Positions 28,974 through 56,611 of a stretch of 60,890 bases of DNA are shown piece by piece (position 1 is the first letter of the stretch; each line of letters begins with the position of its first letter). The translations under genes were made by a program, and so were the position numbers. Origin of the DNA: a virus (taxonomy: Duplodnaviria; Caudoviricetes); the IMG/VR virus record IMGVR_UViG_3300031718_000011, positions 1-60,890 of that record; one strand, 5' to 3'. Below the pieces are notes generated by a model, which saw only the letters and a list, made by a program, of their open reading frames with translations, did not search any database and was not told the DNA's origin.

Positions 28974-30764
28974 TCACGGCAATGGCCTAATGACCACCGT
29001 CACATCGCCCGTCGCTGTGGCACCCTCCGGCGTCCCGATACGCGCATAAACATTCGGCGTATGCGGAAGATTGGCCAACACATAGGACTGCGTATTACCG
29101 TTGGTTGAGGTAAGACTTTGCGCGTTATTGTTGGTCGCGTCTGCGGTGGCACTAACCGTGATTGCCTGATCCGCCGCCATCGTGAGCGAGCCGCCGCCGG
29201 TCGTACCAAAGACGCCTATCGTGGCGGTCGTGAGCGAATGAGAGGCGTTCGTAATGTAAGCCGTGTTAAACACAAACCGCGTCATGCCCTGCGGCAGCGT
29301 GATCGGCACCGCATTGTCTGTGGTCGCGGAATTGAAATTGACGCCAGTCAAGGTGACATAGATAAAACCCGACGAAACTAACGACCGCAGAGCCGGCGTC
29401 CCCTCATTCGTATCGTCCGTCGCCAGGTTGGTGAAACTGCAAGCCGCGCTGCCGGGAAATATCGCCGCGCATGCGCTTCCTGCAAAGTTGAGCACCGTTC
29501 CGCTGAATAACGCCCGAGGTCCACTCGTCGTGATCGTGCCACCAATATTGAAAGACGACGACGTAAACCCTTTCAACAACCCACCGTTGATCGCCGATGC
29601 CACATTCGTAAAAGTCCCATTATTGGGAAAATTGAACTGGATTCCAGGATTAACCTGGATAATGCCGGTATTGTCGGCAAGCAACGCCTGTCCGCAATTG
29701 CCGAGGAAGGAACTGGACGCCACATTGAAATTAATAACGGCATTCTTGGTCGCATTGATACAAACCGCACTGGAATTAAATGACCCTATAGTCGTGCCAA
29801 CCACATCGATGATGGAGTGCTCAGATGTCCGCATTGCATTGGCCGCAGACCCCGCATCATCAATCTGAATATCCGTGACCTTGAATTCGCAGCCATCGCC
29901 GGCAAAAACTGCCGTTCCGCCATTTGGCGCGGTCATGTGAACGTTTGTCGGACTAGATGAATTGCCCTGCAAAAATATAAATGGATTACCAAGGACGCCA
30001 CCATTGCAGGCCACTGGATAATTTGCCGCAGCTACAGACGATGTCGGAGCATCTGCAAAAACAATAGTGGCATTAAAACCATTTGAATCATAGTTCTGCG
30101 CTACAACATTGACGGCGTGCTGCCCCGTGAGGAACGGCGCCGTGACCGAAAGCCCGTTGTTACTATCGTTGCCCGCCGAACATGTTTGCCCGTTGCACGG
30201 CTGAGAACTGCTGCTGTTTCCGTTCACATAAAAATTGGTATCGGCCGTGAGCCTTATTCGCGTGCCGCCCGCACCCGAATTCGAGGATAGCGCAACTTGA
30301 TAATTCGAGGAACCATCGGCCACGATAAAGGCCGATTGATTGGTCGTGAGGATTAAAGACGATGCACCGCCGATGGTCGCAAGCGTTGGCGTAATCGTAA
30401 CCGTGCCCGCGCCCAGATTACTGACATAGACATTCCATGGAAAAAACGATCCAGAACCCTGCGGCAGCGTCACTGCAACCGGGCTTGCATTGGCATAGGT
30501 GACGAGTTGTCCATAGTCCGCGACCTGCAGCGTGTCCGCCGTGAGAGTCACCGCCCGGACGCTGGTATATTGCTGGTAGGAATTGACGATATTATTGAGG
30601 CATTGGCGCTGGATTGCCGGCGTAATCAGTCCGGAATTGTTATCGGGAAAACAACTCGCGATCTGCGTCATGACCGCAGATTTTGTCATCTGGGCAGATG
30701 ACGGGAGCGCCCCGATCAACACAAATACAAAAGCGGCGACAGCCGCTAATGTGCGCTTCATCAT
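28974..30764 (-). CDS. Tailspike/tail-fibre-like beta-rich protein with a Sec signal peptide
   Basis: MMKRTLAAVAAFVFVLIGALPSSA|QM. It has RL.ADTNFYV...GNDSNNGLS...PFLT.QHAV (beta-helix entry motif) and 10 mature Cys. Confidence 0.7.
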   Translation of the reverse strand: MMKRTLAAVAAFVFVLIGALPSSAQMTKSAVMTQIASCFPDNNSGLITPAIQRQCLNNIVNSYQQYTSVRAVTLTADTLQVADYGQLVTYANASPVAVTLPQGSGSFFPWNVYVSNLGAGTVTITPTLATIGGASSLILTTNQSAFIVADGSSNYQVALSSNSGAGGTRIRLTADTNFYVNGNSSSSQPCNGQTCSAGNDSNNGLSVTAPFLTGQHAVNVVAQNYDSNGFNATIVFADAPTSSVAAANYPVACNGGVLGNPFIFLQGNSSSPTNVHMTAPNGGTAVFAGDGCEFKVTDIQIDDAGSAANAMRTSEHSIIDVVGTTIGSFNSSAVCINATKNAVINFNVASSSFLGNCGQALLADNTGIIQVNPGIQFNFPNNGTFTNVASAINGGLLKGFTSSSFNIGGTITTSGPRALFSGTVLNFAGSACAAIFPGSAACSFTNLATDDTNEGTPALRSLVSSGFIYVTLTGVNFNSATTDNAVPITLPQGMTRFVFNTAYITNASHSLTTATIGVFGTTGGGSLTMAADQAITVSATADATNNNAQSLTSTNGNTQSYVLANLPHTPNVYARIGTPEGATATGDVTVVIRPLP

Positions 30765-32677
30765 CACCCTCTCCACTGCGCAAGCAACAGCATAGTCGGC
30801 TGCGTGCCAAAGAATGTTGCGCCTCGGGTCCCGGTTACGGTTTCAAGGGCCGTAATCGTCTGCGCACCAATCGTGATCGGCGGCTGATACATTGCGGGCG
30901 GCGACCCACCAATCTCCCAAACTCCACTCCCTGGCAGCGTATCTATCATGACTTGAGCGGTCGTGCCCGAAAATGCCGTCGTGGAATTATAGCCGATACC
31001 GATCTGGCCGAGATCAACCTGGATTCCCACCACCGATGAATTGGATGGAATGATTGTTTGCTGAAACGTCAGGTTTACGGTTTCCTCGGGCAACCCGACA
31101 AAGGTAATCAGGCTGTTTGCCGTGGCATTGTTCGAGGGCCGAATTATCGCCGTCGTATAACCCCAACTTGCCGTGCTATCGCCGACCTGCAAATAAATAG
31201 GAATGCGCCAATAGGCGTTCCACACTCCGAATTTTCTACTCTGTCCCCATGTGCGATAAGCGCTGATCTGACCCGCCGTCGCATCGACCAGAACGGAACC
31301 GACATAGGTGCATTGCAGCGCCGGGATCGTGTAGGTATTCGATCCATTGTTGGCATTGATCGAGAATGCATTGACCCAAATGCCATTCTGTTTTTGCAAT
31401 TGCGGCGATCCCGCCCCCGTACCGCGCGTCGCACTCGCACCGGACGAGGTTGCCCATGCCGGCCCGAACACGGCAACAGGCGTTCCGGCATTGTTGAAAA
31501 TGCAGGCATCGTAAGCCGTATTCGACGCTTGAGCCGACGACGACACCGCAAGCGTCAATTCCGGAAACACCAGAATTGAAAACGACGATCCATTCCAGAT
31601 CGGAATTTGATTCCCGACATAAGGACTATAATAAACCGTCGTCGCCGCCGTAATATCGTTAGGACCTTGAACAGGTCCTCCGCTAGCGGCATTTTGCAAC
31701 GTCAAATAGCCTTGCGGCGGCTGCACGGGTGCCGCAGATGCCGATGGCTGCACCAGATTGATGATATGAAAATTCTGTTGCGTCGCCGAGAAAGAAACGT
31801 AAACGACATTCGACGGAGAATTCGCGACAATCTCACCGCCCGTCAAAGCTTCCGCGCCTGCGGACGTGTCTTTCAAGATCGAATATGTTCCAAATCCAGA
31901 CGGCGTAAGCGTCGTCGCGCCGGTATTTGTCGATAACGGGATGAAGCCGATGATCTGTCCATCGATTCCAGCGAACGCCGTATCGACCACAGTGATTGCA
32001 TTCGGGGTGCCGCCCGCGAGATTGGCCCAATACGGATTGTTCTGATTCGTTGAAGCGGTAAGCTGATCCCAGATCGTGTTGCCGAGTGAGTCTTGCAGAA
32101 CCTGACGGTAAATTCCCGAGCCATAGACGATGGCACAGCCATTGGCATCGAGTTGAACCGGATTCGTATTTTGGTGATTCGAGGCTTGATCGGCGTTGAA
32201 CCAAGTTTGTTTGAACGTCGAAGTGTTTGGAACGTAATAGGCGACCGTGCCGCCGGCCAAGGATTGGTTGATGTAGACGCTTGAGATCGGGACCGAAAAG
32301 CCCGTCACGTTGCCGATGGTCGAAGGGACAGCGGAAAGGACGTTTCCAACCATAAATTGCTTGCCGGGGTTGAGGATGGTTACCGCCGTAACCGCCCCTC
32401 CCGAAACTGTGATATTGGCCGTGGCGCCAGTGCCGTTGCCGCCCGTCAGGGCTACGCCGCCATAGGTACCGTTCGTACCCCCGGAACCGCCCGTGATCGG
32501 GCCTAGGAGGCCCACAAAGCCCGTGCCGGTGCCTCCTGGTCCCCCACTTGTGGGGCTCAACCCGACAAAACACGATTCGGCGAGAGGTAGCAGGGTAGCT
32601 TGTGCATATGCCTTTTGAGGCGCAAACCACGATAGCGCCAGCGCAAGGATGATGCTAAGATGGCCGAATCTTTTCAC
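30764..32677 (-). CDS. Tail fibre/tailspike with a virion-attachment domain and a Sec signal peptide
   Basis: GTG start with GAGG RBS, MKRFGHLSIILALALSWFAPQKAYA|QA. LAGG.V.YY.P.T...K.TW...NTNPV.LDANG.A..YG.G.YRQ...D..GN.IWD podoviral tailspike anchor. Confidence 0.75.
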   Translation of the reverse strand: MKRFGHLSIILALALSWFAPQKAYAQATLLPLAESCFVGLSPTSGGPGGTGTGFVGLLGPITGGSGGTNGTYGGVALTGGNGTGATANITVSGGAVTAVTILNPGKQFMVGNVLSAVPSTIGNVTGFSVPISSVYINQSLAGGTVAYYVPNTSTFKQTWFNADQASNHQNTNPVQLDANGCAIVYGSGIYRQVLQDSLGNTIWDQLTASTNQNNPYWANLAGGTPNAITVVDTAFAGIDGQIIGFIPLSTNTGATTLTPSGFGTYSILKDTSAGAEALTGGEIVANSPSNVVYVSFSATQQNFHIINLVQPSASAAPVQPPQGYLTLQNAASGGPVQGPNDITAATTVYYSPYVGNQIPIWNGSSFSILVFPELTLAVSSSAQASNTAYDACIFNNAGTPVAVFGPAWATSSGASATRGTGAGSPQLQKQNGIWVNAFSINANNGSNTYTIPALQCTYVGSVLVDATAGQISAYRTWGQSRKFGVWNAYWRIPIYLQVGDSTASWGYTTAIIRPSNNATANSLITFVGLPEETVNLTFQQTIIPSNSSVVGIQVDLGQIGIGYNSTTAFSGTTAQVMIDTLPGSGVWEIGGSPPAMYQPPITIGAQTITALETVTGTRGATFFGTQPTMLLLAQWRG

Positions 32678-32729
32678 GGCCGCCTCGATTGTGGGGCGGT
32701 TTTTGGTTGGGTCATGAGAGGACAAACCA

Positions 32730-33715
32730 TGTTTGAGGCATCGGAGTCAGCGCCAGCCGGTTATTCCATTCGGCGGTTAATGGAGTACAAGGTTGGAGAA
32801 GATCAAACAATTTCCGAAGACGACATTGCCAATATTGCCCAGATACGATTTGCGCGATGCCGAAACTATGTAGCCGAAGCCGATCAAGAGCGATTGCGAT
32901 TCGCGATCCAGGTCGCGGGCAGCCAATGGGGCAAAACCGCAACCGCAGACGAAATAATCGCAGCCATTGAAGGTGCGGGCTTTCAGATAACCAGGGCGAA
33001 AACCTTATGAACATTGAAAACATAAAATACCGCGTGCAACTACCTCCCGACCTTAGGTGGTCGGAATGGCGCACATTGGATGAACCGACAACCGAACCGC
33101 TCATTCTGTCTGTTCAACTTTCCGAACAGGTTTCATTGGAGCAATATAATCAAGAGATTGCCCCTAAACTTAATAAACTCATCGGCTGAATGGTGACCGA
33201 TGACCCTCTCGCTTTTCGCTCCCCTCACATGACACAGATTCCACACTGAGTTTCAATCCATGCAATTCAATTGGTGGATGATCGCAGCCTACATCATCGG
33301 CCCCGTGGCGGAAGGTATCCATCGCGGCTTTCAACAGCATTATGGCCTCAACGTCACAGACGGAGCGCGGCGCAAAACGCTTGCGCGATTGGAGGCCGAA
33401 TACTGGTCAACACAAGCCGACGATGGCCCCGAACGCCGCTCGCAATGGTGGCCGCAGATCGATCCTCTCCCGCCGCTTGAGAATTTTCCCGCGCTTGCTG
33501 GCACGCTCCAAAACCTCATTGCAGAGTCCCGCCAAGATTGGGCACGGTTGAGAAATTCCCACGCAAGCGCGCCGTTTCCGCACCCGGACCGGCAATCAAA
33601 AGTCCTGATAACGCCCGCGCCCGCGCACCACTATTTGCCGCAGTCCCGCGCGACAACGCCTCGGATCGGATTGCATCAAGCAAGCTCGATAGACCGGGAC
33701 CCTCGCGCTGAGTAA
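32730..33715 (+). other. Three small antisense ORFs inserted in the late operon (moron-like)
   Basis: ORFs ending at 33010, 33189 and 33715 on the + strand between minus-strand virion genes. Confidence 0.45.
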
Positions 33716-36161
33716 GCAGCGGCGCGATTTGCTGCCGGGCGCCCGCATAACTCGCATTCCTGCCGCCCTGCAAAACCGTCGAAGGCCGCAGCGCGTCAAT
33801 CCAGGCAGGCGGAATGATCGACAGCGGTTCCGTCAAACTCGGATTCCAGTGTGGAATTGCCGGTGCCTCAAGTGCATTCATCGCGGCCGTGCGCGGCGCC
33901 GTTGGCGAGCCGGCGCGTGGATTCACATAGCGTGCCTGACCGGACAAATATTCCTGTTGCTGCATGGTATCAATCAACGTTTGCGCCTTGGTATCGCCAA
34001 GCATGAGCCGCAGCTTTTCCTGATTATTAGGTGCCAAGAACTTATTGCGCAGCGCCGTATCGCCATTCGCGGTCGAACCCATGACTTGATCGGCCGCGTT
34101 GCGCAGCCCCACAAGCCGCGCCTGCAATTCCGGCCCATTCAACGTGCGAAGCTCTTGACGCAATTCATCGACTGATGTTCCCGCGCGGCCACCCAGGAAT
34201 GCATCCTGTCCTGCCGAAATCTGATCCAGCAACGAACTGCGGTCGGCAAATTCAGAGCGCGCCTGATTCCATACTTGCCCTGCAGGCGTTTTGCCAATTT
34301 CGTTAATTAGTTCGTTTTTCATGCCAATGAGGGCGGCAGCGCGAGTTTTGTTGCCGCCGGCATAAGCTGCCTCGATCTTGGAATCCAATCCGCGCTTGAC
34401 CAAATCCCATGTTTCAGTGGTCGGAAAATCTTTCTGCTGACCCGTGGTGAAGAAATTCCGATTCATCGGCCGTCCGGTCGCGTTTGACAAGAATTCCGCC
34501 TCATCGAAGGCACCGACCTTATCGAGCCGCGGAATCATATCCTTCAAGGCCTGCGTCGGATGGACCTGCATCGTTCGCCATTGATTGTAAAGCGGATCGG
34601 CCGCCGCGCTCCGGTTTTCGGTAATCGCATTCCTGAAATCCTCGATATCGACTTTGTTGCCGATATTGCGATCCAATGCGGTTTCAATCACGCCGCGTTG
34701 CGCTGCCTGTCTTGTGCGATAGGCTTCGCCGACAACAGAGCTTGCGGGAGGCTCTGCCCGGTTGGCGATTCCCGCTGCCAATTCCGTCATGGCGGGATTC
34801 AAATCCGCGAGAAACCCATGCGGACCCATGCGTGTCCGCGCCGCAGCAAGCGAGCCAGGCGTTTCGTTGGCCATCGCCGTCGAAAGCCAATTGCGTGCGA
34901 TGGGATTAACATTGGCCAACGGCCCCTGACCGCCGCGCGCCGCATTTAAACCAGCGCCGACGGCGCCGCCGATGCCTTCCGCAAGCAATGGCCCGCCTGC
35001 CCCGAACGCACCGCCGACTTCCGCCCCGGTAATCGGGTCTTGACCGCGCAAGGCCGCATCGGCAGCACCAATACCAGCACCACCAAGCGCACCACTATAA
35101 AACCGCGCGCCAAGCGTTGATCCCATAGTGCCGAGCGCCCGCCCGCCAAGACTCGTCATGGCCACCGGACCCGTAACCAGCGCCCCACCCAACAGATTCC
35201 CAGCCGTCGAAAGCAGCGGATGTTGCTGATTATAAATTTCCTGCGCGCGTTGATCTATATTCCAATCGCGGGAGAACCTTTCTCCATAACTCAGTCCCGG
35301 ATTGGCGCCGGATAACGGATCAAGCGCCGCCCCCGCCGCCGACGTGGCCATACTGACCGCGGGCCCAACAATCGGCATTCCCTCCGCAATCGCGCTCGGA
35401 ACGCCCAATGTTTTCGCGCGCTGTTGTGCCACCGCTTCCTGCTCCGCAGGCAATCGCGAAGGCAGATCGGCAGGCGTGAACTGCGGCGGCAATGTTCCTT
35501 TTGCAACCGGAGCATTGGAGCCAATCCCAAGCGCCCGCGCCGTTGCCGCAATATCATCATCGTTCACATTGGAGAACGCAGGCGGCGGCGGATCGCTTGC
35601 GGTTCTCTGACGGGGAATCACAATCTGCGGCCTCCCGGACGCGGAAGCTTGGGGCACGGAACTAATACCAAGCGCACGCGCCGTTTCCCCAATATCGTCT
35701 TGCGAGGGTATGCCGAATTGAGACTGGGGCACCGGACCATTCGGCGCATAAAAAGCATGGCCGCCGATTTTGGCAGTCGGCTGGCCCTGCGCCCAATCCG
35801 GCAACCGTCCATTTTGCGCCATGACAATCGACGGATTCAAATAATGATCGGCCCCTCCGGTCGAATCGGGAATGTCGCCCTTCCACACCGAATCGACAAG
35901 TCCCGCCGCTTTTTGATAGTCACCGTTTTTTGTAGACCAGCGCGACGGAGAATTCGGGTCGGTTCGCGGCAACGACCACGCTGAAAACTGATTCGGCGCC
36001 AACACAACATCGGATGGCGAGCCGCCATATTGTCCGGATGACAAACGATTCTTGATGACAGAGGCGACAGCGGCCATGCCCGCATCGCCATCCTTTCCAG
36101 CTTCGGAAAGAACGGTTCGCGTAATCAAATCGCGATCCTGCGGCGACAGATCGTCCGCCAT
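33516..36161 (-). CDS. Internal virion/ejection protein with an N-terminal SleB (Hydrolase_2) cell-wall hydrolase
   Basis: TVLSEA....GM.AVA.VI.NR...NQFS.W...TGGA.HY.NP...W.....KIG.H.FY. Large helical C-terminus. Confidence 0.85.
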   Translation of the reverse strand: MADDLSPQDRDLITRTVLSEAGKDGDAGMAAVASVIKNRLSSGQYGGSPSDVVLAPNQFSAWSLPRTDPNSPSRWSTKNGDYQKAAGLVDSVWKGDIPDSTGGADHYLNPSIVMAQNGRLPDWAQGQPTAKIGGHAFYAPNGPVPQSQFGIPSQDDIGETARALGISSVPQASASGRPQIVIPRQRTASDPPPPAFSNVNDDDIAATARALGIGSNAPVAKGTLPPQFTPADLPSRLPAEQEAVAQQRAKTLGVPSAIAEGMPIVGPAVSMATSAAGAALDPLSGANPGLSYGERFSRDWNIDQRAQEIYNQQHPLLSTAGNLLGGALVTGPVAMTSLGGRALGTMGSTLGARFYSGALGGAGIGAADAALRGQDPITGAEVGGAFGAGGPLLAEGIGGAVGAGLNAARGGQGPLANVNPIARNWLSTAMANETPGSLAAARTRMGPHGFLADLNPAMTELAAGIANRAEPPASSVVGEAYRTRQAAQRGVIETALDRNIGNKVDIEDFRNAITENRSAAADPLYNQWRTMQVHPTQALKDMIPRLDKVGAFDEAEFLSNATGRPMNRNFFTTGQQKDFPTTETWDLVKRGLDSKIEAAYAGGNKTRAAALIGMKNELINEIGKTPAGQVWNQARSEFADRSSLLDQISAGQDAFLGGRAGTSVDELRQELRTLNGPELQARLVGLRNAADQVMGSTANGDTALRNKFLAPNNQEKLRLMLGDTKAQTLIDTMQQQEYLSGQARYVNPRAGSPTAPRTAAMNALEAPAIPHWNPSLTEPLSIIPPAWIDALRPSTVLQGGRNASYAGARQQIAPLLTQREGPGLSSLLDAIRSEALSRGTAANSGARARALSGLLIAGPGAETARLRGNFSTVPNLGGTLQ

Positions 36162-36162
36162 T

Positions 36163-38075: not shown

Positions 38076-38081
38076 TGATTT

Positions 38082-38774: not shown

Positions 38775-38783
38775 CTGTGATTC

Positions 38784-39239
38784 TCAATTTCCGTAAGAAT
38801 GAAACTGCGTCGCCTGCCAGCACTGAAAACATCGCAACTTCCCAGCGCCAAGAACATACGGCATTCCAGCACCCAGCGCATCTATTTGCGTTTGCGCATT
38901 GGGCGGATACACATTTTTATTCGTAGCCGTCCCGTTAAATACCCAGATATCGTTACCGGGTTGAAGATCGAGCGCGGAGGCAATTGCGACTCCGGAATTC
39001 GCCGGCCCCCCCTCGATATCGTTCCAGTCCGCTGTAAGTTGGAAGGCATCATTAATCGCAATTCCCGCTGCAGTCACCGTAGGATTGCTGACTTTCGGTA
39101 CAATACCGGTGCCGGCGCCAGTCCTAGTATCGATTGCCTGCAGCCATCCCCGACCGTAAGAAGTTGTCGGAATGCCGGTTTGTGGATCGACCAAAGGGGC
39201 GCGGCCATTAAATAATCCTTGCGGATGAAGAATGCTCAT
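38784..39239 (-). CDS. Small tail/virion protein, paralogous to 41839..42300 but without a signal peptide
   Basis: Shared TAAG.....A.QL.......SGV.L..PG....V.N......VYP.....I pattern. Confidence 0.6.
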   Translation of the reverse strand: MSILHPQGLFNGRAPLVDPQTGIPTTSYGRGWLQAIDTRTGAGTGIVPKVSNPTVTAAGIAINDAFQLTADWNDIEGGPANSGVAIASALDLQPGNDIWVFNGTATNKNVYPPNAQTQIDALGAGMPYVLGAGKLRCFQCWQATQFHSYGN

Positions 39240-41832: not shown

Positions 41833-41838
41833 GATCTT

Positions 41839-42300
41839 TTAGGATGCGTACCAATTTCCCGCTTTGGCGCAGGCCGGCGACGTGGCAACGTGCGATGCCA
41901 GCGTGATCGATGTCGCGTTGTTGATCGTATCCTGCGCGGCAGTAAGAGGATTGTTCGCCACCGAAGGATAAATCGTGAGCGTCTGCGCGCCATTATTATA
42001 GATTTGCATCTGCGTGCCGGGAATGCACGGCGGCAGATTGACGCCCGTGCTCGCCGCGACGGTATCGACCTCGATCAAATAGATATTGGTCGGCAGCGCC
42101 GTACCCGTGGCCTGGGTGGTGCCCGCGGCGGTAATTCCGGACTGATAACTATAGTTCTGACCACCGGCCAATCCGTTGAGCCACGCGCCATCCACGAGGC
42201 CAGGGCCGGTACCCGGAGGCGTCCCTACCGCGGCAACCGCGGCGCCGACAGCGGCACAACAGATTGCACCCAACAGCATATCCCGAAGCGTCTTGAACAT
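41839..42300 (-). CDS. Small beta-rich virion-type protein with a Sec signal peptide
   Basis: MFKTLRDMLLGAICCAAVGAAVA|A, AGGAG RBS, two mature Cys, C-terminal G.W. Confidence 0.65.
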   Translation of the reverse strand: MFKTLRDMLLGAICCAAVGAAVAAVGTPPGTGPGLVDGAWLNGLAGGQNYSYQSGITAAGTTQATGTALPTNIYLIEVDTVAASTGVNLPPCIPGTQMQIYNNGAQTLTIYPSVANNPLTAAQDTINNATSITLASHVATSPACAKAGNWYAS

Positions 42301-42311
42301 TTTCCGTCTCC

Positions 42312-43328: not shown

Positions 43329-43332
43329 GGCA

Positions 43333-44127: not shown

Positions 44128-44142
44128 CTCTCCGGTTGATGA

Positions 44143-47185: not shown

Positions 47186-47192
47186 GAATCCC

Positions 47193-50336: not shown

Positions 50337-50517
50337 CTGCGGCCCATCCAGCCGCAGCCGCGATTCGGCGATTGGTCAATCTGCGGTTTTGGCGGCTCGC
50401 CCTTGAAGGTTTTCATGGCGTCTTTGAGTTGATCGGACAGCCAACGCGATGAAGTCGGCGATGCAATAGATTCAATCGCAATCCGTGGTGCGTCCGGTTT
50501 TTTGTTTTCCTCGGCCA

Positions 50518-52173
50518 TCACCGCCGCCCCATCCATCCCGTGCCGCGCTCAGTCGGCAGATCGACGCGAGGCTGTATAGCCGGAATCTGTGCGACGCGCG
50601 AGAATTTCTTGATCCCGCTGATAATTGCTTTTTCACCCTCCGACCATGCCATCATCACGGCATCCCCCTTATCCGGACTGCGACCAAGGCGCTCGGGCTT
50701 TTTCAAATCTTCTTTCGGTTCGACCAAGATGCCGTTGGTTGTGAGTTTCCATCGCGGGGCGGTCAGATCGGCAAGCAACTGTGGATCGGGCGGCAAAGCA
50801 ATCGGCGAACCGCCATCTTGATCGGGATCGAGCGCTTCACGGAATCGCCATGCGACTTCGGCGCGCTTATTGTAGAATTCCAATTGCTTGTCCTTGGTCT
50901 TGGCTTTCGATTCGTTTGCCGCATTATAGGGATGCACCGCAATATCGTTGTCGTTCAACCGCTGCTTTGCAGCCCCACCATACCCCCCTCCCATATCCAT
51001 GACGATGACGGCATTGTTGCGCCTGGCCTCAACCACCAACGCTGCCACATGTGATCCCGTCGGCGTCAGGATGCCCGGCCGCTCGATCAATGGCGCATAC
51101 CATGGCCCATGACGCGGCGCCAAGACGGTCCTATCGGCGCCGCCCTGTGCAACATCCACGCCTATCGCAGACATCACTGCACCATCGGGAGGCTGCGGCT
51201 TCCAACGCGCCTGCGCTGCCTTGACCCAGGCGGTCGGAATCACTTGCCATTCATGATCCTCGCGACCAACAACGAAGTCGCCGTTGAGCAACTGACTCCG
51301 CAAAGGTTCGGGAAGGGCTTGAATTTGTGCGCGGTATCCCGTGTTGGCAAGATAAGGATTGTTTCGCAGGAGAGATTGAATAAAGGTGCGCGACTGCGGC
51401 TGCACGACATCGGTATTATCGTCGCCCTGGGCGATTTCCGCTTCGGTCGCATACCTCCAATTCAGTCCTTCGGTAAACACGATGGGCGCGGCATCGGGCA
51501 CCCACACTGTGGTTCCGTCCCGGTCAGGCCCGGTCACACAATAACGCAACTCGCCCTGGACTGCAGGCCGCGCAAAATTCGGATCGAGCCATGGCGCGAA
51601 CCATTCGATAAGCCATTCGCCTTCGCCTCCGGTCGGAGGGTTTGAAGCAATGATCGCGCGGCGCCGCTGCTTTGGATCGACGCTGCGAAGCCAACCCAGA
51701 ACGAACCTCACTTTTTGTTTAGCGAGTTGCGCCCCCTCATCAAACCCAATGAAATCGTGCGGGCGACCGCGCCAGCTTTCCTCCGAGCCGGGCTTTTCAA
51801 GGTGGCCCAGTTCGCACAGTTTCGAGCCGCGGCGCAGCGTTTTATAAGTACCGTTCCAACCATCGCGCCCGGCGAGCGCCAAGAGTCTTTCCTCAAGCCC
51901 GCGCAAGTCCGTGCTTTGCTTGCGAAAGATCACCGCATTTTGATGATTGTTGAGCGCGACGCCGCAAAGCAAATCCGTCTTGCCGCCGCCCGCTGCACCA
52001 CCGAACAAGATCAAATCGGCTTCGCTGTAGTACGCTTGAAGCTGCGGCTCGTTGCGGGAATCCGGATGCCAGGACAAGGCCAATTCTTTCGCCAACAATT
52101 GATCCAGGACAGCCTTATCCTCGCGCGACAACGACGCGACATAGGCTCTTGGATCAGCGATCACACTCATCAT
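50518..52173 (-). CDS. terL: Terminase large subunit
   Basis: Walker A GGAAGGGKT, Walker B IGFDE, SNPP, and nuclease GVDVA.GG.D and SPD.GDA. Confidence 0.95.
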   Translation of the reverse strand: MMSVIADPRAYVASLSREDKAVLDQLLAKELALSWHPDSRNEPQLQAYYSEADLILFGGAAGGGKTDLLCGVALNNHQNAVIFRKQSTDLRGLEERLLALAGRDGWNGTYKTLRRGSKLCELGHLEKPGSEESWRGRPHDFIGFDEGAQLAKQKVRFVLGWLRSVDPKQRRRAIIASNPPTGGEGEWLIEWFAPWLDPNFARPAVQGELRYCVTGPDRDGTTVWVPDAAPIVFTEGLNWRYATEAEIAQGDDNTDVVQPQSRTFIQSLLRNNPYLANTGYRAQIQALPEPLRSQLLNGDFVVGREDHEWQVIPTAWVKAAQARWKPQPPDGAVMSAIGVDVAQGGADRTVLAPRHGPWYAPLIERPGILTPTGSHVAALVVEARRNNAVIVMDMGGGYGGAAKQRLNDNDIAVHPYNAANESKAKTKDKQLEFYNKRAEVAWRFREALDPDQDGGSPIALPPDPQLLADLTAPRWKLTTNGILVEPKEDLKKPERLGRSPDKGDAVMMAWSEGEKAIISGIKKFSRVAQIPAIQPRVDLPTERGTGWMGRR

Positions 52174-52382
52174 GCGTCAGGCGGCTTTCCCGTGGTCAAT
52201 GCGCGGCTTCCGAGCACACCGACGAAACATCCAACGATAGTCTGAAATGCCGGACCAAGTACCGCGAATATTTTGTCGTTATCAACGCGCGCGTCGAACA
52301 AACCGATTAGCAGAATAGCTATTACTGCGAGCATAACAGCGGCCAAGGTTCCAACGACGATGTAGTAAATGTTGTCTTTCAT
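52170..52382 (-). CDS. Small two-TM membrane protein
   Basis: Two hydrophobic helices, PAFQTIVG.F.G.LG motif. Confidence 0.6.
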   Translation of the reverse strand: MKDNIYYIVVGTLAAVMLAVIAILLIGLFDARVDNDKIFAVLGPAFQTIVGCFVGVLGSRALTTGKPPDA

Positions 52383-52582
52383 TTTTCGGGGGTAATTTTC
52401 GCCTTTGCTTCCTCAAGTTGTTTCTGCAAATCCGCAATCTGCTTCTGCTGCGCCTCGATCTGCTGCGCCCATTGATTGACCACGTTGTCGATCTGAATCG
52501 CGGTTTGACTGGGCGTCGGCTGCTGCTGGGCCAACGCGGAAAATGAGACAAGACACAGCAAAATTGCGAATATGCGCATCAT
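52379..52582 (-). CDS. Signal-peptide-bearing short coiled-coil protein
   Basis: MMRIFAILLCLVSFSALA|QQQ, then heptads QQIEAQQKQIADLQKQLEEAK. Confidence 0.7.
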   Translation of the reverse strand: MMRIFAILLCLVSFSALAQQQPTPSQTAIQIDNVVNQWAQQIEAQQKQIADLQKQLEEAKAKITPEK

Positions 52583-52917: not shown

Positions 52918-52919
52918 AA

Positions 52920-54461
52920 TCAGCATCCCGACCCCACAGTGCTAGCAATGGTGACCGGCGTCGTGCTCGTGCCCGCATAAGCAATCAAATTACATGAGCC
53001 TGCCGAACCGGCAACCCATTTGAGCACGGCGTATCCAGCGCCGGGTGCGGCAGCGGCATCGGTTTCCTTGATCTGCGAGAGATCGCCGCGCTGGCCTGCG
53101 GCTGGCGTTGCCGATCCAATGGTGACTTGCTGGCCGGAGCCGCTAATCGACAGCGCAGAATTAGTTGCCGTCACCGTTCCGCCGGCAAAGAGAACAACAT
53201 TCGTGGACGACGATTCCGAGCCGAGATAAAGTCCGCCACCTGTATTCGCAAGCAATGTCGTATTCGCAACATTGACCAGCGTCGTGCCCGCACCGACCGA
53301 ATTTCTGATTTGGTAGACAGCCGTTCCCGCGCCCGTATCGTTGATCAAATTGTCCGATACGAAGGAAGTGGTAGTCAAATTTGCGATGAAATTCATCGCG
53401 GAGTTGCTACCGCTCGCCCCCGACGCTTGGAAAACCTGATTACCAATAAATGTCTGCCCAGCGTCGATGCGCGCCACAGAGATTGCGGCAGCGGGCCACG
53501 TGATCGTGTTGCTATTGACCTGGAAAGTGCCAGTGAAGTTCGCCGTGCCGTTCGCGGCCAGCGTCGTGAAAGCGCCCGCTGCGCGCGTCGTGCCACCAAT
53601 TGCCGAACCGTTGATTCCTCCGCTGCCCCACGTGCCGCTATCGGGTAGCGTGACCGTGCCAGAGAAGGTCGGACTAGCCGAAAATACAAGATTGGTCGAA
53701 GTCGTTCCGGTCGCACCCGCTGCTGAATACCCGGTGATATTGTTGAAGCAGGTGATCGAGGGCGTTGCGCAGTTCGTGCCGCCGCTGGCTATGGGCAATG
53801 TGCCCGATGAGATAGCGCCAGCTCCACCACTGATGAAAAGCGCACCGTTGCCAAACTGATTGAACGCAATCGCATTCGGCGCGCTGATGGTAAGCGCATT
53901 ATTGACCCCATTGGCAACGCCCCCCTCGAATAGCACGACGGGTGCGGCAGCGGTTTCCGTACCGATATATAGTCCGGGCCCGGTGTTTGCGATGGCTGTC
54001 GTGCTGGCCTGCCTAACCAGCGTCGTATTGTCTCGCGCCGAACCGTTGGTGAAAATAATCGTGCTATCGGTGCCGTTGTCGTTAACGACAGTAAATTGCT
54101 GGTCGCTCGTTGTAAGAGTGCTGTGGGCTATTGTGGTTTGAGCATTACCTCCCGTCGCGCCAGATGCCTGGAACAGCGACGTAGGAGCAGCAACACAAAG
54201 GCCATTCGATCCAATCGTGCACCCGTTAATCGCAACAGATGAGGGCGTGATCGCTCCCAGCGTCAACGTGATCGCAGGCGTCGTCGTGGGGTTAGCCACG
54301 CTGCCGGATATGCCATTGGCGGTAACGACAGAAACCGATGTAACGGTCCCGGAACCCCCACCACCGCCGCTGCCCGATGAATTATTGATACCGTCGGCAA
54401 TTGCCGCCGTGGCAAAAACTAATAGCGCCGCAACAAGAATGGCTTTATTGATTATCGACAT
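52920..54461 (-). CDS. Signal-peptide-bearing Gly/Ser/Thr-rich tail-fibre-like protein
   Basis: MSIINKAILVAALLVFATAAIA|DG. GSGTVTSV...ANG.SGSVAN.TTTPAITL, GTLP.A.GGT and INGS.IG.TT.AAG.FTTL fibre repeats. 6 mature Cys. Confidence 0.75.
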   Translation of the reverse strand: MSIINKAILVAALLVFATAAIADGINNSSGSGGGGGSGTVTSVSVVTANGISGSVANPTTTPAITLTLGAITPSSVAINGCTIGSNGLCVAAPTSLFQASGATGGNAQTTIAHSTLTTSDQQFTVVNDNGTDSTIIFTNGSARDNTTLVRQASTTAIANTGPGLYIGTETAAAPVVLFEGGVANGVNNALTISAPNAIAFNQFGNGALFISGGAGAISSGTLPIASGGTNCATPSITCFNNITGYSAAGATGTTSTNLVFSASPTFSGTVTLPDSGTWGSGGINGSAIGGTTRAAGAFTTLAANGTANFTGTFQVNSNTITWPAAAISVARIDAGQTFIGNQVFQASGASGSNSAMNFIANLTTTSFVSDNLINDTGAGTAVYQIRNSVGAGTTLVNVANTTLLANTGGGLYLGSESSSTNVVLFAGGTVTATNSALSISGSGQQVTIGSATPAAGQRGDLSQIKETDAAAAPGAGYAVLKWVAGSAGSCNLIAYAGTSTTPVTIASTVGSGC

Positions 54462-54822
54462 AAAGCGTATCCGAATTGCTCGCACACGTCGCTTGGAACG
54501 CATCGGATGGCACATAGGGCCAATATCGCGTGTAAGACCCGCCCGGCAACAGGATCATCGAAATTGCTTTTGTGGCTGTTCCAGAGCCAATGAACAGCCA
54601 GCAATTGTCAGATGCATTATTGTTCTCAATCGTGAGCGCCTGCCGCTGGGTCGATGTCCCCGCAATCGAAGGCAGGATTTGCTGGAAAGTATTGCCAGTC
54701 GCAATAGTCGTCGGTGTATTGACCGTCGATCGATTGAGCGGCGTTCCGGAGACCGTTGTCTGAGCCGACGCAGCAACTATTGCGCAGACAAGAAACCCGA
54801 GCGCGAAAAAAATCTGACGCAT
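54445..54822 (-). CDS. Signal-peptide-bearing small beta-sandwich virion-type protein
   Basis: MRQIFFALGFLVCAIVAASA|QT. R..L.I.N......L.PG.SY decoration-like pattern. 2 mature Cys. Confidence 0.7.
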   Translation of the reverse strand: MRQIFFALGFLVCAIVAASAQTTVSGTPLNRSTVNTPTTIATGNTFQQILPSIAGTSTQRQALTIENNNASDNCWLFIGSGTATKAISMILLPGGSYTRYWPYVPSDAFQATCASNSDTLYVDNQ

Positions 54823-55123
54823 GGTCGCAATCCTTCCCGCGCTCAATCCGTCACTTCGGCATCGGCACCGCATCGTCTTTTTCGGCCGGAGGCTTGGTGC
54901 CGCCCGGATCGGCCTTCCCTGCCGTCGCGGAGGGCTTTTGCGTGCCCTGACCCGGCTGGGTATTGAGATTCATGGACGTGCCAGAGATGCCTTTTTGCGT
55001 TCCGATATCGTTTGCCATTGTGGTCTCCTGACCATTTCGAGGGATGGTGGCGGCGCGGGCTTGGAACTAAGACCCGCGCCGCAGTCCGCCGCACATTGGG
55101 AGGAAAAGCGGCTGTTGGTTCGC

Positions 55124-56611
55124 TTATGGTTCGGCCGATGCCGAAATGACACCAGCGCCGGCATTGTCAATGAGCGTCATGCTCAAGCCAACCGCCGCGG
55201 TGGTACCGGACAGCGTACACGCCGCCATGACCTGCTGCGTCGAAGGCGCCAGTGCCACCGTGGAATCGGTTGCCAGTCCCGTGCAGTTCGACGCCGTGGT
55301 TTCCGCCGTGGTGGTGAAGCCAGCAAACCCCGCCGTATATTTGACAACCGGCGCCAACCGCATCGAGATCGGGAAAAGCACCGGACACTGCATCGTGGTA
55401 TTGGCCGTCGTGAAGTGACAAACCGATCGCGAAGGACCAAGCGCGCCTTCATTCACCACATACGAATAGTACTGCTGCAGAACCTGTTCGACAGCAGCGG
55501 GACGGCGCTCAAAGCCGGTCGGAGAGATCACGCCATTGGGCAGCAGATTCGTCACGCCCGAAGGCATCGCCTGCAACTGCGCGCCGGTAAACTCGAAATA
55601 GTCTGTCGAAACCGTCGTGGTGAGTGTCGGCGTCGCGCAGATTTGCACGCCGATCGCAGTTACGGCAGTTCCAGATGCATTGGTCGCGGGGATCGGCGCA
55701 TAGACCGAATAGCGCGTCCATGTGGTCGAGAGCGGAATGGTGGCGGCACCACTGGCCACAGTACCCGTCGTGCCGGGACTGAGACCAGCAACCGCCGCCT
55801 GATATCCGGTGATGGTGCCGAGCGCGAAGGTTGAACTATTGCCACCGGCAAATCCAATCGTCGCTTGAGTCGCCGCCGCATCTGCCGCCGTAAAATAAGC
55901 GATCGTTACCACGACTTGCGAGTTTGACGCCGAAAAAGTGGCCGGCGCAAAACCATAGAACGAGAAGATCGCATTGTTGCCGATGAGAGGCGCCGCAGCC
56001 TGCTTATCGAGCGTCTGGCCAACACAGCTTGCGCCCGAAGGCGTCCCTGACGGACGCGCGACACGCATCGACGCGTAAAGCCCGAGAGTGGGAATCGTAT
56101 CGGCAGCCCCGGTTTGTTTCGTGACCGTCATCACGTTGGAGGCCGAATAGGCCCACCAACGATCCGCCGTCATCACCGCGGCAGTCGGAGACACAGCCGC
56201 AAAGCTCGAAGCCGCGCGCTGCCAAAGATTGGTGCCAAAATCGCCGCCGATCAAACGATTGGTCTTGAGATTGATCGAGCCGGCCAGAGCGGATGGAAGC
56301 ACAGACGTTGTGCCGCTGGGCGTATCAACGGGAATCGTTTCCTCGCCGGTATAAGCCGGACCTGCAGGAACCGTTTGGGCGCAGATACCTTGCCCAGTGC
56401 CTTGGGTCGATCCCGGCACTTGGCCGAATGGGCCTTGGGTCGAAGGCAGCACGACGCCGGTAACGGTCGAAGCGCAATACGAGGCACCCCCGATCACCGG
56501 CAATGTAGACCACATGCCAGTGGCTTTGAGCGCGGTCGGAACCAATGTAATCGCAAGCACGGAAGCCGCCAGCGCGCCTGCGGCAATCAATCCCTTACGG
56601 GTCCGATTCAT
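55124..56611 (-). CDS. Signal-peptide-bearing fibre/carbohydrate-binding-like protein
   Basis: AAGGAG RBS, MNRTRKGLIAAGALAASVLAITLVPTALKA|T. NRLI.GDF...WQR...ADRW...TW.RY...FERRP...E....Q.Y phage fibre domain. 8 mature Cys. Confidence 0.75.
   Translation of the reverse strand: MNRTRKGLIAAGALAASVLAITLVPTALKATGMWSTLPVIGGASYCASTVTGVVLPSTQGPFGQVPGSTQGTGQGICAQTVPAGPAYTGEETIPVDTPSGTTSVLPSALAGSINLKTNRLIGGDFGTNLWQRAASSFAAVSPTAAVMTADRWWAYSASNVMTVTKQTGAADTIPTLGLYASMRVARPSGTPSGASCVGQTLDKQAAAPLIGNNAIFSFYGFAPATFSASNSQVVVTIAYFTAADAAATQATIGFAGGNSSTFALGTITGYQAAVAGLSPGTTGTVASGAATIPLSTTWTRYSVYAPIPATNASGTAVTAIGVQICATPTLTTTVSTDYFEFTGAQLQAMPSGVTNLLPNGVISPTGFERRPAAVEQVLQQYYSYVVNEGALGPSRSVCHFTTANTTMQCPVLFPISMRLAPVVKYTAGFAGFTTTAETTASNCTGLATDSTVALAPSTQQVMAACTLSGTTAAVGLSMTLIDNAGAGVISASAEP

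What the first reader, a model, noticed from the sequence alone, without database searches (positions are those of the whole stretch)
28974..56611. Candidate periplasmic virion-maturation system: eight late proteins, mostly fibre/spike-like, carry Sec signal peptides and paired cysteines
Seen in the sequence: ORFs starting at 56611, 54822, 54461, 52917, 52582, 42300, 32677 and 30764 all begin with a basic n-region, a hydrophobic h-region and an A-x-A-like cleavage site (e.g. MKKLFAVAAASILFASSAFA|GG, MRQIFFALGFLVCAIVAASA|Q, MMKRTLAAVAAFVFVLIGALPSSA|Q). Mature Cys counts are 8, 2, 6, 4, 0, 2, 4 and 10, often in close pairs (CNGQTC, CTIGSNGLC, CATPSITC). The core genes (portal, coat, gp4, gp10, ejection proteins) have no such leaders. 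Established: tailed phages assemble in the reducing cytoplasm, and fibres and spikes normally lack signal peptides. Inference: the receptor-binding/decoration set appears to be exported, oxidatively folded in the periplasm, and either docked onto particles when the holin opens the inner membrane or used as decoys or surface proteins. I found no other tailspike-sized gene without a leader, which favours the virion role.
Basis: partly seen in the sequence, partly recalled or inferred. Interest (0 to 1): 0.93.

Follow-up and report, generated by a model that had tools for sequence, protein, structure and literature searches.

The report
Phage tail fibres carrying export signals
A complete soil phage genome encodes its tail fibres and several sugar-binding proteins with bacterial export signals, which suggests that the last step of building this virus happens outside the cell's cytoplasm.

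Summary
All carry n/h/c-type Sec leaders, and the mature Cys counts are 8, 2, 6, 4, 0, 2, 4, 10. The window is a complete 60.9-kb P22/BPP-1-like podovirus with a prophage relative in a Xanthobacteraceae MAG.

ORF 32677 is the positional and sequence orthologue of leaderless tailspikes of cultured phages. Of its 120 best homologues, 118 carry a leader that varies in sequence but keeps its form. In the wider N-domain family, 47 of the 150 nearest representatives carry one.

Leader-bearing forms show the even-cysteine bias of exported, disulfide-bonded proteins and leaderless forms do not: 35 even to 3 odd against 39 to 47. Predicted cleavage gives the same mature N-terminus as in leaderless spikes.

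Export and oxidative folding are therefore well supported. Docking onto particles after the holin opens the membrane is the most economical inference for the two tail-module fibres, but it is not shown. The cassette between terS and terL may be a surface-modification set instead. Seven literature searches found no description of Sec-leader tailspikes in tailed phages.

The parts
30764..32677 (-). sp7: 637-aa tail fibre/tailspike orthologue with a 25-aa Sec leader (..KAYA|QATLLP); 4 mature Cys, of which C36 and C181 are invariant in the family
   Evidence: GTG start with GAGG. N-domain homologous to leaderless tailspikes of PAE2, X14, PBR31 and P26218. Same place after the ejection genes as in leaderless prophages L029 and L032. 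118 of 120 homologues carry a leader. AF2 pLDDT 85, helix 5-17, low confidence 20-29. Fold matches to phage fibres.
28974..30764 (-). sp8: 596-aa second fibre with a 24-aa leader (..PSSA|QMTKS); 10 mature Cys
   Evidence: GGAGAGG RBS and start coupled to the sp7 stop. N-terminal 159 aa are 52% identical to the G001 homologue, whose leader differs in sequence. 71 of 115 homologues score as leader-bearing; homologues carry RBP-type C-terminal Pfam domains.
41839..42300 (-). sp6: 153-aa leader protein between the gp4-like and gp10-like genes; 2 mature Cys
   Evidence: AAGGAG RBS. Homologues with divergent leaders followed by AVGTPP in L003, L008, L009 and L018, and a more divergent leader protein at the same place in L017; a homologue at the same place in L028, whose N-terminus I did not read. 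Atlas feature hits are viral clusters plus one depolymerase C-terminal beta-sandwich cluster at 0.91, a lead only.
55124..56611 (-). sp1: 495-aa exported tandem beta-sandwich (CBM/lectin-like) protein; first gene of the cassette between terS and terL; 8 mature Cys
   Evidence: AGGAG RBS. 54 of 56 homologues carry a leader and 56 of 56 have even mature Cys counts. AF2 pLDDT 82.6. PDB fold matches CBM22, CBM61, Fbs1 and the SasG lectin domain.
54445..54822 (-). sp2: 125-aa leader protein (..ASA|Q); 2 mature Cys
   Evidence: RBS GGAAGGA. 61% identical homologue with a leader in G002.
52920..54461 (-). sp3: 513-aa Gly/Thr/Ser-rich fibre-like leader protein (..AIA|DG); 6 mature Cys in three pairs
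   Evidence: Only the N-terminal 34 aa are conserved in G002, whose homologue also has a leader and 4 Cys. No Pfam, PHROG or cultured-phage match.
52579..52917 (-). sp4: 112-aa leader protein (..AFA|GG); 4 mature Cys
   Evidence: No family match.
52379..52582 (-). sp5: 67-aa leader plus coiled-coil protein (..ALA|QQQ); no mature Cys
   Evidence: ATGA start/stop overlap. Only weak family matches.
52170..52382 (-). 70-aa protein with two hydrophobic segments, holin/antiholin-like, directly upstream of terL
   Evidence: phrog_126 holin/anti-holin at E 0.004, weak. Sequence.
26307..27026 (-). sp9: ninth leader protein, 239 aa (..AVA|AD), 4 mature Cys, ends in F; outer-membrane-protein-like by eye only
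   Evidence: Strong RBS and scorer value 3.26. Cys count. No Pfam, PHROG or PDB match.
39236..40747 (-). gp10-like tail hub (head closure Hc3), no leader
   Evidence: phrog_578 at E 5e-75.
42561..43328 (-). gp4-like tail adaptor candidate, no leader
   Evidence: phrog_12985 at E 2.5e-15. Homologous (28-37% identity) to the gene lying directly before the gp10-like gene in prophages L029 and L032. The 'gp4-like' name is my inference from that position.
33516..36161 (-). 881-aa ejection/internal protein with an N-terminal cell-wall hydrolase domain, no leader, no Cys
   Evidence: PF07486 at E 7.8e-16 and phrog_5880. Cys count.
27780..28454 (-). Candidate soluble endolysin (GH24/pesticin-like) without a hydrophobic N-terminus, flanked by small TM proteins (28430-28675 and 27167-27367)
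   Evidence: Atlas feature score 0.97 to GH24 lysozyme clusters, a lead. No Pfam, PHROG or PDB sequence hit. Sequences.

Best explanation
The eight ORFs, plus a ninth at 27026-26307, are genuine Sec-type, signal-peptidase-I pre-proteins of a complete temperate P22/BPP-1-like podovirus of Rhizobiales. They are exported to the periplasm late in infection, the leader is cut off, and their cysteines are paired there by the host Dsb system.

Two of them, sp7 (30764-32677) and sp8 (28974-30764), are the phage's tail fibres. sp7 keeps the conserved N-terminal domain found at the start of tailspikes in leaderless relatives, which I infer to be the tail-docking domain. After cleavage it has the same mature N-terminus as those relatives.

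Capsids, DNA packaging and the gp4/gp10 tail hub are cytoplasmic. The fibres, and probably the small tail-module protein sp6, must therefore join fibre-less particles outside the cytoplasm, when the holin breaches the inner membrane or in the lysate.

The five leader proteins between terS and terL (sp1-sp5) are exported glycan-binding or accessory proteins. Their presence on the virion is not shown.

My odds: export and disulfide bonding about 0.9; post-export docking of sp7 and sp8 about 0.55; sp1-sp5 being virion parts about 0.3.
For: Shown:
1. Starts and leaders are real.
2. The leader is kept as a property while its sequence drifts. 118 of the 120 best sp7 homologues have one directly before A(A/Q)ATLLP, and the other 2 look like truncated gene calls. 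The G001, G002 and Xanthobacteraceae prophage copies have different leaders.
3. sp7 is the tailspike orthologue. Its N-domain is shared with annotated leaderless tailspikes of cultured phages. It sits after the ejection genes, as in the leaderless prophages L029 and L032. The genome has no paralogue.
4. Leaders recur in other lineages of the same N-domain family. 47 of the 150 nearest representatives have one, out of 17,842 hits at E<=1e-3. Viral contigs L045 and L048 carry leader-bearing spikes at the syntenic place. A FastTree needs 20 state changes, against 39-47 in the ten printed of 200 label shuffles.
5. Cysteine parity:
- Leader-bearing L029-like spikes: 35 even, 3 odd, 9 zero. Leaderless: 39 even, 47 odd, 17 zero (Fisher p 3.5e-7).
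- sp8 homologues: 64 to 7 with a leader against 18 to 19 without (p 6.3e-6).
- sp7 family: 107 to 11. sp1 family: 56 to 0.
- In the window, G001 and G002, all 20 leader proteins with any mature Cys have an even count, and several odd totals become even once the leader Cys is removed.
- Even-Cys bias is a described mark of exported proteins in Gram-negative bacteria (PMC7678975, passages read).
6. AXA sites leave about 3 residues before LLP. Leaderless forms have 3 (55 cases) or 4 (34 cases) residues before LLP, counting Met.
7. A candidate endolysin without any hydrophobic N-terminus lies beside small TM proteins. This fits a large-hole holin.

Inferred: docking after membrane breach. In-vitro addition of spikes and fibres to particles is classical knowledge, recalled and not checked here.
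Against: - No call shows the proteins in virions or in the periplasm, and no member of this phage group is cultured.
- SignalP could not be run. My scorer is crude, and sp7 itself scores just under my cut-off.
- sp1 and sp6 have long Gly/Ala-rich cores that could be uncleaved anchors.
- 9 of 47 leader-bearing spikes have no Cys, so disulfide bonding cannot be the general reason for export.
- The invariant C36/C181 pair sits in one clade, so its link with the leader is a single evolutionary event.
- Parity counts come from related, mosaic proteins and are not fully independent.
- sp8 and sp1 each have an in-frame Met exactly at the predicted mature start. That would allow a leaderless isoform, although most homologues lack that Met.
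- Virion disulfides can form without export in a Rhizobiales phage (PMC10811340, listing and abstract start only).
- Docking would have to be fast, or take place in the lysate.
Confidence: 0.55

Rival explanations
1. The proteins are exported but are not virion parts. They are free periplasmic or secreted glycan-binding proteins that mask, trim or modify the host's surface polysaccharide receptor. That would give superinfection exclusion, protect progeny from sticking to debris, or cause lysogenic conversion. Virions would get their fibres from a fraction of the same gene products that escapes export, or from leaderless isoforms.
For: - The genes between terS and terL form a hypervariable cassette of leader proteins whose content differs between relatives.
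- In G002 the cassette holds a Wzy_C membrane protein (38.5 bits, cut-off 31.7) next to a TPR protein.
- sp1 folds as tandem carbohydrate-binding-like beta-sandwiches.
- sp8 and sp1 have an in-frame Met at the mature start.
- Bacterial precedents exist for exported phage-RBP-like proteins: Tat-exported WceF (PMC7949094, passages) and the Bdellovibrio MAT fibres, which have a signal peptide, a conserved N-domain and variable tips (PMC10769870, passages).
Against: - sp7 and sp8 sit at the tailspike position of the structural module and have no leaderless paralogue.
- The N-domain that sp7 shares with tailspikes of leaderless phages is the most conserved part of the protein, and its mature N-terminus matches theirs. 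A free enzyme would not need this.
- The internal Met is absent from most homologues, and sp7 has no internal start.
- The promoter and terminator scan around the cassette is at background level.
Confidence: 0.28
2. The hydrophobic N-termini are uncleaved signal anchors, or SAR-like domains. They tether the proteins to the periplasmic face of the inner membrane until the membrane is depolarised, as for SAR endolysins.
For: sp1 has an uncharged core of about 22 residues, and sp6 a 19-residue Gly/Ala/Cys-rich core. SAR endolysins show that phages use such release (PMC3765740, passages).
Against: - Most leaders have 10-16-residue cores followed by canonical AXA sites.
- In the sp7 family those sites stand at a fixed distance from the conserved LLP motif.
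- Cys residues inside leaders must be left out to obtain even counts. That fits removal of the leader.
Confidence: 0.1
3. The leaders are not export signals. They are either mis-called starts or chance hydrophobic N-termini, and the proteins fold in the cytoplasm like ordinary fibres.
For: No experimental datum and no SignalP run. ORF 54461 lacks a clear SD.
Against: - RBS or start coupling at seven of the eight starts, and no alternative start in sp7.
- The property is kept in 118 of 120, 54 of 56 and 71 of 115 homologues.
- The parity contrast between leader-bearing and leaderless forms.
- The control phage PAE2 has no such large proteins.
Confidence: 0.04

Closest known systems
P22-type tailspike/fibre with an N-terminal particle-binding domain (leaderless relatives: Pseudomonas phage PAE2 ORF 14864-16873, Shewanella phage X14 tailspike, Xanthomonas phage PBR31 tail spike, Rhodoferax phage P26218)
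   Same: The N-terminal domain is homologous: 44-49% identity over sp7 residues 140-212 to PAE2 and Ralstonia phage P4282, and the leaderless L029 N-domain is 41-64% identical to PAE2, P26218, X14 and PBR31. The C-terminal receptor-binding part is variable. The gene follows the ejection genes behind a gp4-like/gp10-like tail hub. A solved P22 tail complex that includes the gp9 N-terminus exists (8u10, seen only as a title).
   Different: The window's protein carries a cleavable Sec leader directly before the domain, an extra Gly-rich beta domain (residues about 40-135, phrog_5342), and two invariant Cys residues. All 5 cultured homologues whose starts I read (PAE2, X14, PBR31, P26218, Vibrio phage 41E34.2) are leaderless.
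Filamentous phage (Inoviridae) coat proteins pIII/pVIII
   Same: Virion proteins made as Sec pre-proteins and folded in the periplasm before they join the particle. This is recalled knowledge. PMC4823517 appeared only in a search listing.
   Different: Inoviruses assemble by extrusion at the membrane and have no capsid, portal or terminase. Here the head and tail hub are ordinary cytoplasmic Caudoviricetes parts.
Sec-exported phage lysis proteins (SAR and signal-peptide endolysins, spanins)
   Same: Phage late proteins that use the host Sec system and wait in the envelope until the holin fires (PMC3765740 and PMC3556154, passages).
   Different: Those are lysis enzymes of 100-250 aa. Here the exported proteins are 500-640-aa fibres and lectin-like proteins with cleavable leaders.
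Bacterial exported phage-RBP-like proteins: Bdellovibrio MAT fibres and Pantoea WceF
   Same: A signal peptide, a conserved N-terminal beta-rich domain, and variable fibre tips including TNF-like domains (PMC10769870). WceF has a tailspike fold and an export signal (PMC7949094).
   Different: Those are chromosomal bacterial genes outside any virion module, and WceF uses Tat. The window's genes lie inside a complete phage structural module.
Temperate-phage morons and conversion genes (outer-membrane or O-antigen-modifying proteins)
   Same: Exported or membrane proteins carried in late regions. A Wzy_C gene sits in the equivalent cassette of G002. sp9 looks like an outer-membrane protein by eye.
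   Different: sp7, sp8 and sp6 are core members of the tail module and are conserved across the phage group. They are not optional insertions.

Membership tests
Sec (SPase I) signal peptide | Positively charged n-region, uncharged hydrophobic h-region of about 7-16 residues, small residues at -3/-1 | tested here: met
   All eight plus sp9 by inspection and by my scorer. sp1 (about 22 residues) and sp6 (19) have longer cores.
Sec (SPase I) signal peptide | Not a lipoprotein (no Cys at +1) and not Tat (no twin arginine) | tested here: met
   None of the leaders printed has a lipobox or an RR motif.
Sec (SPase I) signal peptide | Property kept while the sequence drifts among homologues | tested here: met
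   118 of 120 (sp7), 54 of 56 (sp1) and 71 of 115 (sp8) homologues carry a leader. Leaders of G001, G002 and L028 differ in sequence.
Sec (SPase I) signal peptide | Actual translocation and cleavage | not testable with these tools
   Only indirect evidence: even-Cys bias limited to leader-bearing forms, and odd totals that become even once the leader Cys is removed.
P22-like tailspike N-terminal domain family (LLPNG..F .. NPV.LD..G) | Sequence homology to N-termini of annotated tailspikes | tested here: met
   17,842 representatives at E<=1e-3 with the leaderless L029 domain as query.
P22-like tailspike N-terminal domain family (LLPNG..F .. NPV.LD..G) | Gene position downstream of the gp4-like and gp10-like genes and the ejection genes | tested here: met
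   Synteny with L028, L029, L032, L044-L046 and L048.
P22-like tailspike N-terminal domain family (LLPNG..F .. NPV.LD..G) | Domain at the very N-terminus of the mature protein | tested here: met
   Predicted cleavage leaves about 3 residues before LLP, as in leaderless forms.
P22-like tailspike N-terminal domain family (LLPNG..F .. NPV.LD..G) | Physical attachment to the tail hub | not testable with these tools
   No virion data exist for this phage group.
SAR (signal-arrest-release) domain | Weakly hydrophobic Gly/Ala/Ser-rich N-terminal TMD without a cleavage site | tested here: inconclusive
   sp1 and sp6 have Gly/Ala-rich cores. The other six have canonical AXA sites.
Moron / lysogenic-conversion cassette (for sp1-sp5 only) | Variable content between close relatives | tested here: met
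   The cassettes of L008, L009, L011, L013 and L018 differ. A Wzy_C gene is present in L009.
Moron / lysogenic-conversion cassette (for sp1-sp5 only) | Own promoter and terminator | tested here: inconclusive
   4 promoter-like and 9 terminator-like sites, against 4.1 and 9.1 expected from shuffles. The scan covers sigma-70 consensus only.
Inovirus-type membrane assembly | No capsid, portal or terminase; extrusion through the envelope | tested here: not met
   Terminase, portal, P22-type coat and scaffold are all present.

The most novel reading that the evidence does not exclude
Some tailed phages finish their virions outside the cytoplasm. Their receptor-binding fibres are Sec-exported, cut by signal peptidase, oxidised by the host Dsb system (and in some relatives perhaps further modified by a phage Wzy_C/TPR pair). 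They dock onto fibre-less particles only when the holin breaches the inner membrane. This would be a second, extracytoplasmic assembly compartment for Caudoviricetes. It would also be common rather than a curiosity: about a third of the 150 nearest representatives of a 17,842-member tailspike N-domain family carry the leader.
Probability: 0.45. Interest if true: 0.92.

Novelty: new variant of a known kind. Interest (0 to 1): 0.84.

Why it matters
Textbook assembly of tailed phages takes place entirely in the cytoplasm. Only lysis proteins and morons are known to use Sec. A tailspike orthologue with a cleavable leader, conserved across a whole phage group and recurring in other lineages, means one of two things: either the last assembly step is extracytoplasmic, or phages routinely secrete their receptor-binding proteins for another purpose.

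Either outcome changes several practical things:
- how fibre genes are annotated, since leaders are usually taken as evidence against a structural role;
- how recombinant receptor-binding proteins from metagenomes should be expressed, namely in the periplasm with disulfides;
- how lysis timing and particle maturation are thought to be coupled.

It can be tested directly with an inducible Xanthobacteraceae or Beijerinckiaceae prophage.

Tried and rejected
- Family searches on the eight proteins were almost empty. The only hits were phrog_5342 'tail fiber' on sp7 residues 61-135 and weak hits on sp2, sp5 and the holin-like ORF.
- tblastn of sp8 and sp3 against 50,697 phage records found nothing. 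A PDB sequence search with the sp7 profile, g224 and sp9 found nothing useful.
- The whole-chain PDB fold search of sp7 gave only low-TM matches to phage fibres and TNF-like lectins. The viral library gave uncultured-phage proteins and tail fibres.
- My first regex classification of leaders and Cys positions mis-assigned several proteins and caught the wrong LD..G motif. I replaced it with an alignment-based count.
- I first read the C36/C181 pair as covarying with the leader. The wider sample showed 46 leader-bearing spikes without it, so I dropped that argument and used parity instead.
- Complex prediction with gp10-like, gp4-like and sp7 residues 26-235 returned 'no answer' (score 0.00, controls not run). 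It counts neither for nor against binding.
- The promoter/terminator scan of 50000-58500 was at background level.
- The search for related loci with P0259 found no relative.
- The large minus-strand ORFs at 19408-20883, 21098-21766 and 6888-7988 look like antisense artefacts, not fibres.
Supplementary files of papers were not opened. Virion proteomics tables of related cultured phages, if any exist, could bear on the claim.
- Literature: seven searches of open-access PMC and bioRxiv found no description of Sec-leader tailspikes or fibres in tailed phages. Subscription journals were not covered.

Full report
**What the window is.** The 60,890-bp window is a whole IMG/VR virus record with direct terminal repeats; the exact repeat is 127 bp.

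The late genes lie on the minus strand:
- large terminase 50518-52173, with a short DNA match to Bordetella BPP-1-type terminases;
- portal 48144-50336;
- scaffold 46403-47185 (phrog_8865);
- P22-type coat 44957-46216, whose best cultured match is Pseudomonas phage PAE2 at 47%;
- a gp4-like gene 42561-43328;
- a gp10/Hc3-like hub 39236-40747 (phrog_578, E 5e-75);
- an ejection protein 38082-38774 (phrog_598);
- an 881-aa protein with a cell-wall hydrolase domain (PF07486).

A prophage of the same type sits in a 634-kb contig of a Xanthobacteraceae MAG (L028), and a 57.9-kb contig binned with a Beijerinckiaceae MAG carries the same fibre (L030). The host is therefore a Gram-negative member of the Rhizobiales, and at least some members of the group are temperate.

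**The observation.** All eight ORFs and their starts are real. Five starts have a Shine-Dalgarno-like sequence. Three are coupled to the upstream stop (52582 by an ATGA overlap; 30764 has both an SD and coupling). 54461 overlaps its neighbour by 17 nt without a clear SD, but G002 has the same arrangement. sp7 (32677) has no other start codon before codon 55 of its open frame.

Each N-terminus has a basic n-region, an uncharged hydrophobic core and small residues at -3/-1, and none has a lipobox or a twin arginine. The mature Cys counts of 8, 2, 6, 4, 0, 2, 4, 10 and the quoted Cys motifs are exact.

A crude scorer run over every ORF in six frames puts seven of the eight at the top (3.35-4.15). 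sp7 scores 2.96. The scorer also finds a ninth leader protein at 27026-26307. The cultured relative PAE2 yields only small lipoproteins, lysis proteins and artefacts. SignalP was not available.

**sp7 is the tailspike orthologue.**
- Its C-terminal half matches the annotated tail spike of Pseudanabaena phage Pam5, and residues 140-212 match PAE2 and Ralstonia phage P4282.
- The unannotated 669-aa ORF of PAE2 (L027 14864-16873) begins MTQLLPNGKQHF with no leader. sp7 reads leader|QATLLPLAESCF.
- In the prophages L029 (Beijerinckiaceae MAG) and L032 (Ralstonia thomasii), leaderless genes with this N-domain follow gp4-like, gp10-like and ejection genes, exactly where sp7 lies.
- With the leaderless L029 domain as query, cultured phages give 34 records. 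In the 5 whose starts I read (PAE2, X14 'tailspike protein', PBR31 'tail spike protein', P26218, Vibrio 41E34.2) the gene starts 0-13 codons before the match, so none has a leader.
- The AlphaFold model (pLDDT 85.1) has a helix at residues 5-17 and a low-confidence stretch at 20-29, followed by beta domains. Fold matches are to phage fibres, RBPs and TNF-like lectins.
- The window holds no second copy.

**The leader is conserved as a property.** The search with sp7 residues 1-230 gave 682 proteins at E<=1e-3 among 8,000 scored candidates, and the best 120 were listed. In a MAFFT alignment, 118 of these 120 have a hydrophobic leader before the conserved ATLLP. The other two (P0046, P0092) look like truncated gene calls. 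Leader sequences differ freely while the mature N-terminus is nearly invariant.

The same holds for the copies in G001, G002 and L028. It also holds for homologues of sp1, sp2, sp3 and sp6 in related viral contigs.

**The leader comes and goes in the wider family.** The leaderless L029 domain finds 17,842 cluster representatives at E<=1e-3. Of the best 150, 47 carry a leader and 103 do not. This sample is the nearest 150 to the query, not a random sample. Ten of the leader-bearing ones are all metagenomic and unnamed.

Two further viral contigs with P22-like tail modules (L045, L048) have leader-bearing spikes at the syntenic place. On a FastTree of 156 N-domains (90 columns, weakly resolved) the leader state changes at least 20 times, against 39-47 in the ten printed of 200 label shuffles.

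**Cysteine parity.**
- L029-like set: leader-bearing proteins with any mature Cys are 35 even and 3 odd (9 have none). Leaderless ones are 39 even and 47 odd (17 have none). Fisher p is 3.5e-7.
- sp8 homologues (115 proteins): 64 even and 7 odd with a leader, 18 even and 19 odd without, and 3 ambiguous left out; p is 6.3e-6. A few 'leaderless' ones are scorer misses, which works against the contrast.
- sp7 family: 107 even and 11 odd.
- sp1 family: 56 of 56 even.
- Window, G001 and G002: all 20 leader proteins with any mature Cys have an even count. In six of them an odd total becomes even only when the Cys inside the leader is left out.
- The other late proteins of the window are 9 even, 7 odd and 7 zero.

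A preference for even Cys numbers is described for extracytoplasmic proteins of Gram-negative bacteria (PMC7678975, passages read; its reference 42 was not opened).

The counts are not phylogenetically independent. However, the C-terminal parts are mosaic and the counts range from 2 to 16. The invariant C36/C181 pair of the sp7 clade is a single event, and I do not count it separately.

**Same mature N-terminus.** Leaderless spikes have 3 (55 cases) or 4 (34 cases) residues before LLP, counting Met. In leader-bearing ones the common contexts AIA|AAT, AHA|AAT and AFG|QAT leave 3. Both routes should therefore yield almost the same N-terminus. This is hard to explain unless the exported protein does the same job as the cytoplasmic one. 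Removal of Met before small residues is recalled knowledge.

**The other leader proteins.**
- sp8: its N-terminal 159 aa are conserved in G001 (52%) and its C-terminus is unrelated. Homologues carry RBP-type domains (PF13884, PF12708, PF10983 and others).
- sp6: it lies between the gp4-like and gp10-like genes. It has leader-bearing homologues in L003, L008, L009 and L018, a more divergent leader protein at the same place in L017, and a homologue at the same place in L028 whose N-terminus I did not read. Its only functional lead is an Atlas hit at 0.91 to a depolymerase C-terminal beta-sandwich cluster.
- sp1: a conserved family of about 495 aa. Its model (pLDDT 82.6) matches CBM22, CBM61, Fbs1 and the SasG lectin domain.
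- sp2-sp5 and the 70-aa holin-like ORF complete a cassette between a terS-like gene (seen in G002) and terL. The cassette's content differs in every relative. In G002 it includes a Wzy_C protein and a TPR protein.
- sp9: looks like an outer-membrane protein by eye only.

**Lysis genes.** Downstream of sp8 lie a small protein with a C-terminal TM segment (28430-28675), a 224-aa protein and a 66-aa TM protein (27167-27367). The 224-aa protein resembles GH24/pesticin-type lysozymes by Atlas features (0.97, a lead) and has no hydrophobic N-terminus. Pfam, PHROGs and PDB sequence searches were silent on it. A soluble endolysin implies a holin that makes large lesions; that link is recalled knowledge.

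**Mechanism.** Shown or strongly supported: the proteins are Sec pre-proteins that are oxidised outside the cytoplasm, and sp7 is the spike orthologue with an unchanged mature N-terminus.

Inferred: heads and tail hubs are built in the cytoplasm, so fibres must be added when the two compartments mix at holin triggering, or in the lysate. Spikes and fibres add to particles in vitro in classical systems (recalled).

Possible benefits, all speculative:
- disulfide-stabilised RBPs for soil;
- keeping glycan-binding proteins away from cytoplasmic glycan precursors;
- pre-lysis trimming or masking of receptors in the envelope.

The main rival is that these are secreted non-virion proteins, or that the cassette is a conversion module. 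This rival is strongest for sp1-sp5 and weakest for sp7 and sp8.

**Comparison with the known.** Exported virion proteins are the rule in filamentous phages (recalled). Exported lysis proteins are common in tailed phages (PMC3765740 and PMC3556154, passages). Bacteria own exported tailspike- or fibre-like proteins: WceF, which uses Tat (PMC7949094), and the Bdellovibrio MATs, which have a signal peptide, a conserved N-domain and variable tips (PMC10769870). PBR31 has an esterase with a signal peptide, proposed to act in lysis (PMC10975493, one passage).

Seven full-text searches found no report of Sec leaders on tailspikes or fibres of tailed phages. The library holds open-access PMC papers and bioRxiv only.

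**Limits.**
- No experiment and no cultured member of the group.
- No SignalP run; leaders were scored with a home-made scorer.
- Homologue sets are top-N lists, not random samples.
- The tree for the leader state changes is short (90 columns) and weakly resolved.
- The complex prediction gave no verdict.

Noticed in passing
window 58174-59286 (+): An IS1595-family transposase (PF12762 at E 1e-26 plus the zinc-ribbon PF12760) sits inside the phage genome near the terminal repeat.
   Followed up: no
window 7335-7499 and 7764-7928: Two copies of a 165-nt direct repeat, 96% identical and 429 nt apart, in the early region. The long minus-strand ORF over it looks like an antisense artefact.
   Followed up: partly
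window 23900-24712 (+): A 270-aa ORF with a very long poly-Ala/Asp/Tyr tract in its C-terminal half. The only family hit is a weak one to a tape-measure family.
   Followed up: no
L009 4565-5944 and 5796-6233 (= G002, between terS and terL): A Wzy_C (O-antigen ligase/polymerase family) membrane protein (38.5 bits, cut-off 31.7) and an overlapping TPR protein lie among the leader proteins of the relative's cassette. This could be seroconversion, or glycosylation of exported proteins.
   Followed up: partly
L045 3226-3459 and L048 970-1251: The Gly-rich beta domain of sp7 (residues about 30-137, phrog_5342) is found in L045 (3226-3459) between the two matching pieces of the gp4-like gene, and in L048 (970-1251) between the two matching pieces of the gp10-like gene. 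It appears to be a mobile decoration domain.
   Followed up: no
window 38784-39287 and 41839-42300: sp6 and the homologue in G001 of the leaderless 167-aa protein encoded after the gp10-like gene share a domain: 35% identity over 62 aa.
   Followed up: no
window 2729-3997 and 14705-15694: Two DNA methyltransferase-like genes in the early region (phrog_799 at E 5e-60; phrog_363 at E 3e-15).
   Followed up: no
L036, L037, L038 (Micavibrio and Bdellovibrionota MAGs): Leaderless proteins with the same tailspike N-domain occur in genomes of predatory bacteria. Their relation to the Bdellovibrio MAT fibres was not examined.
   Followed up: no
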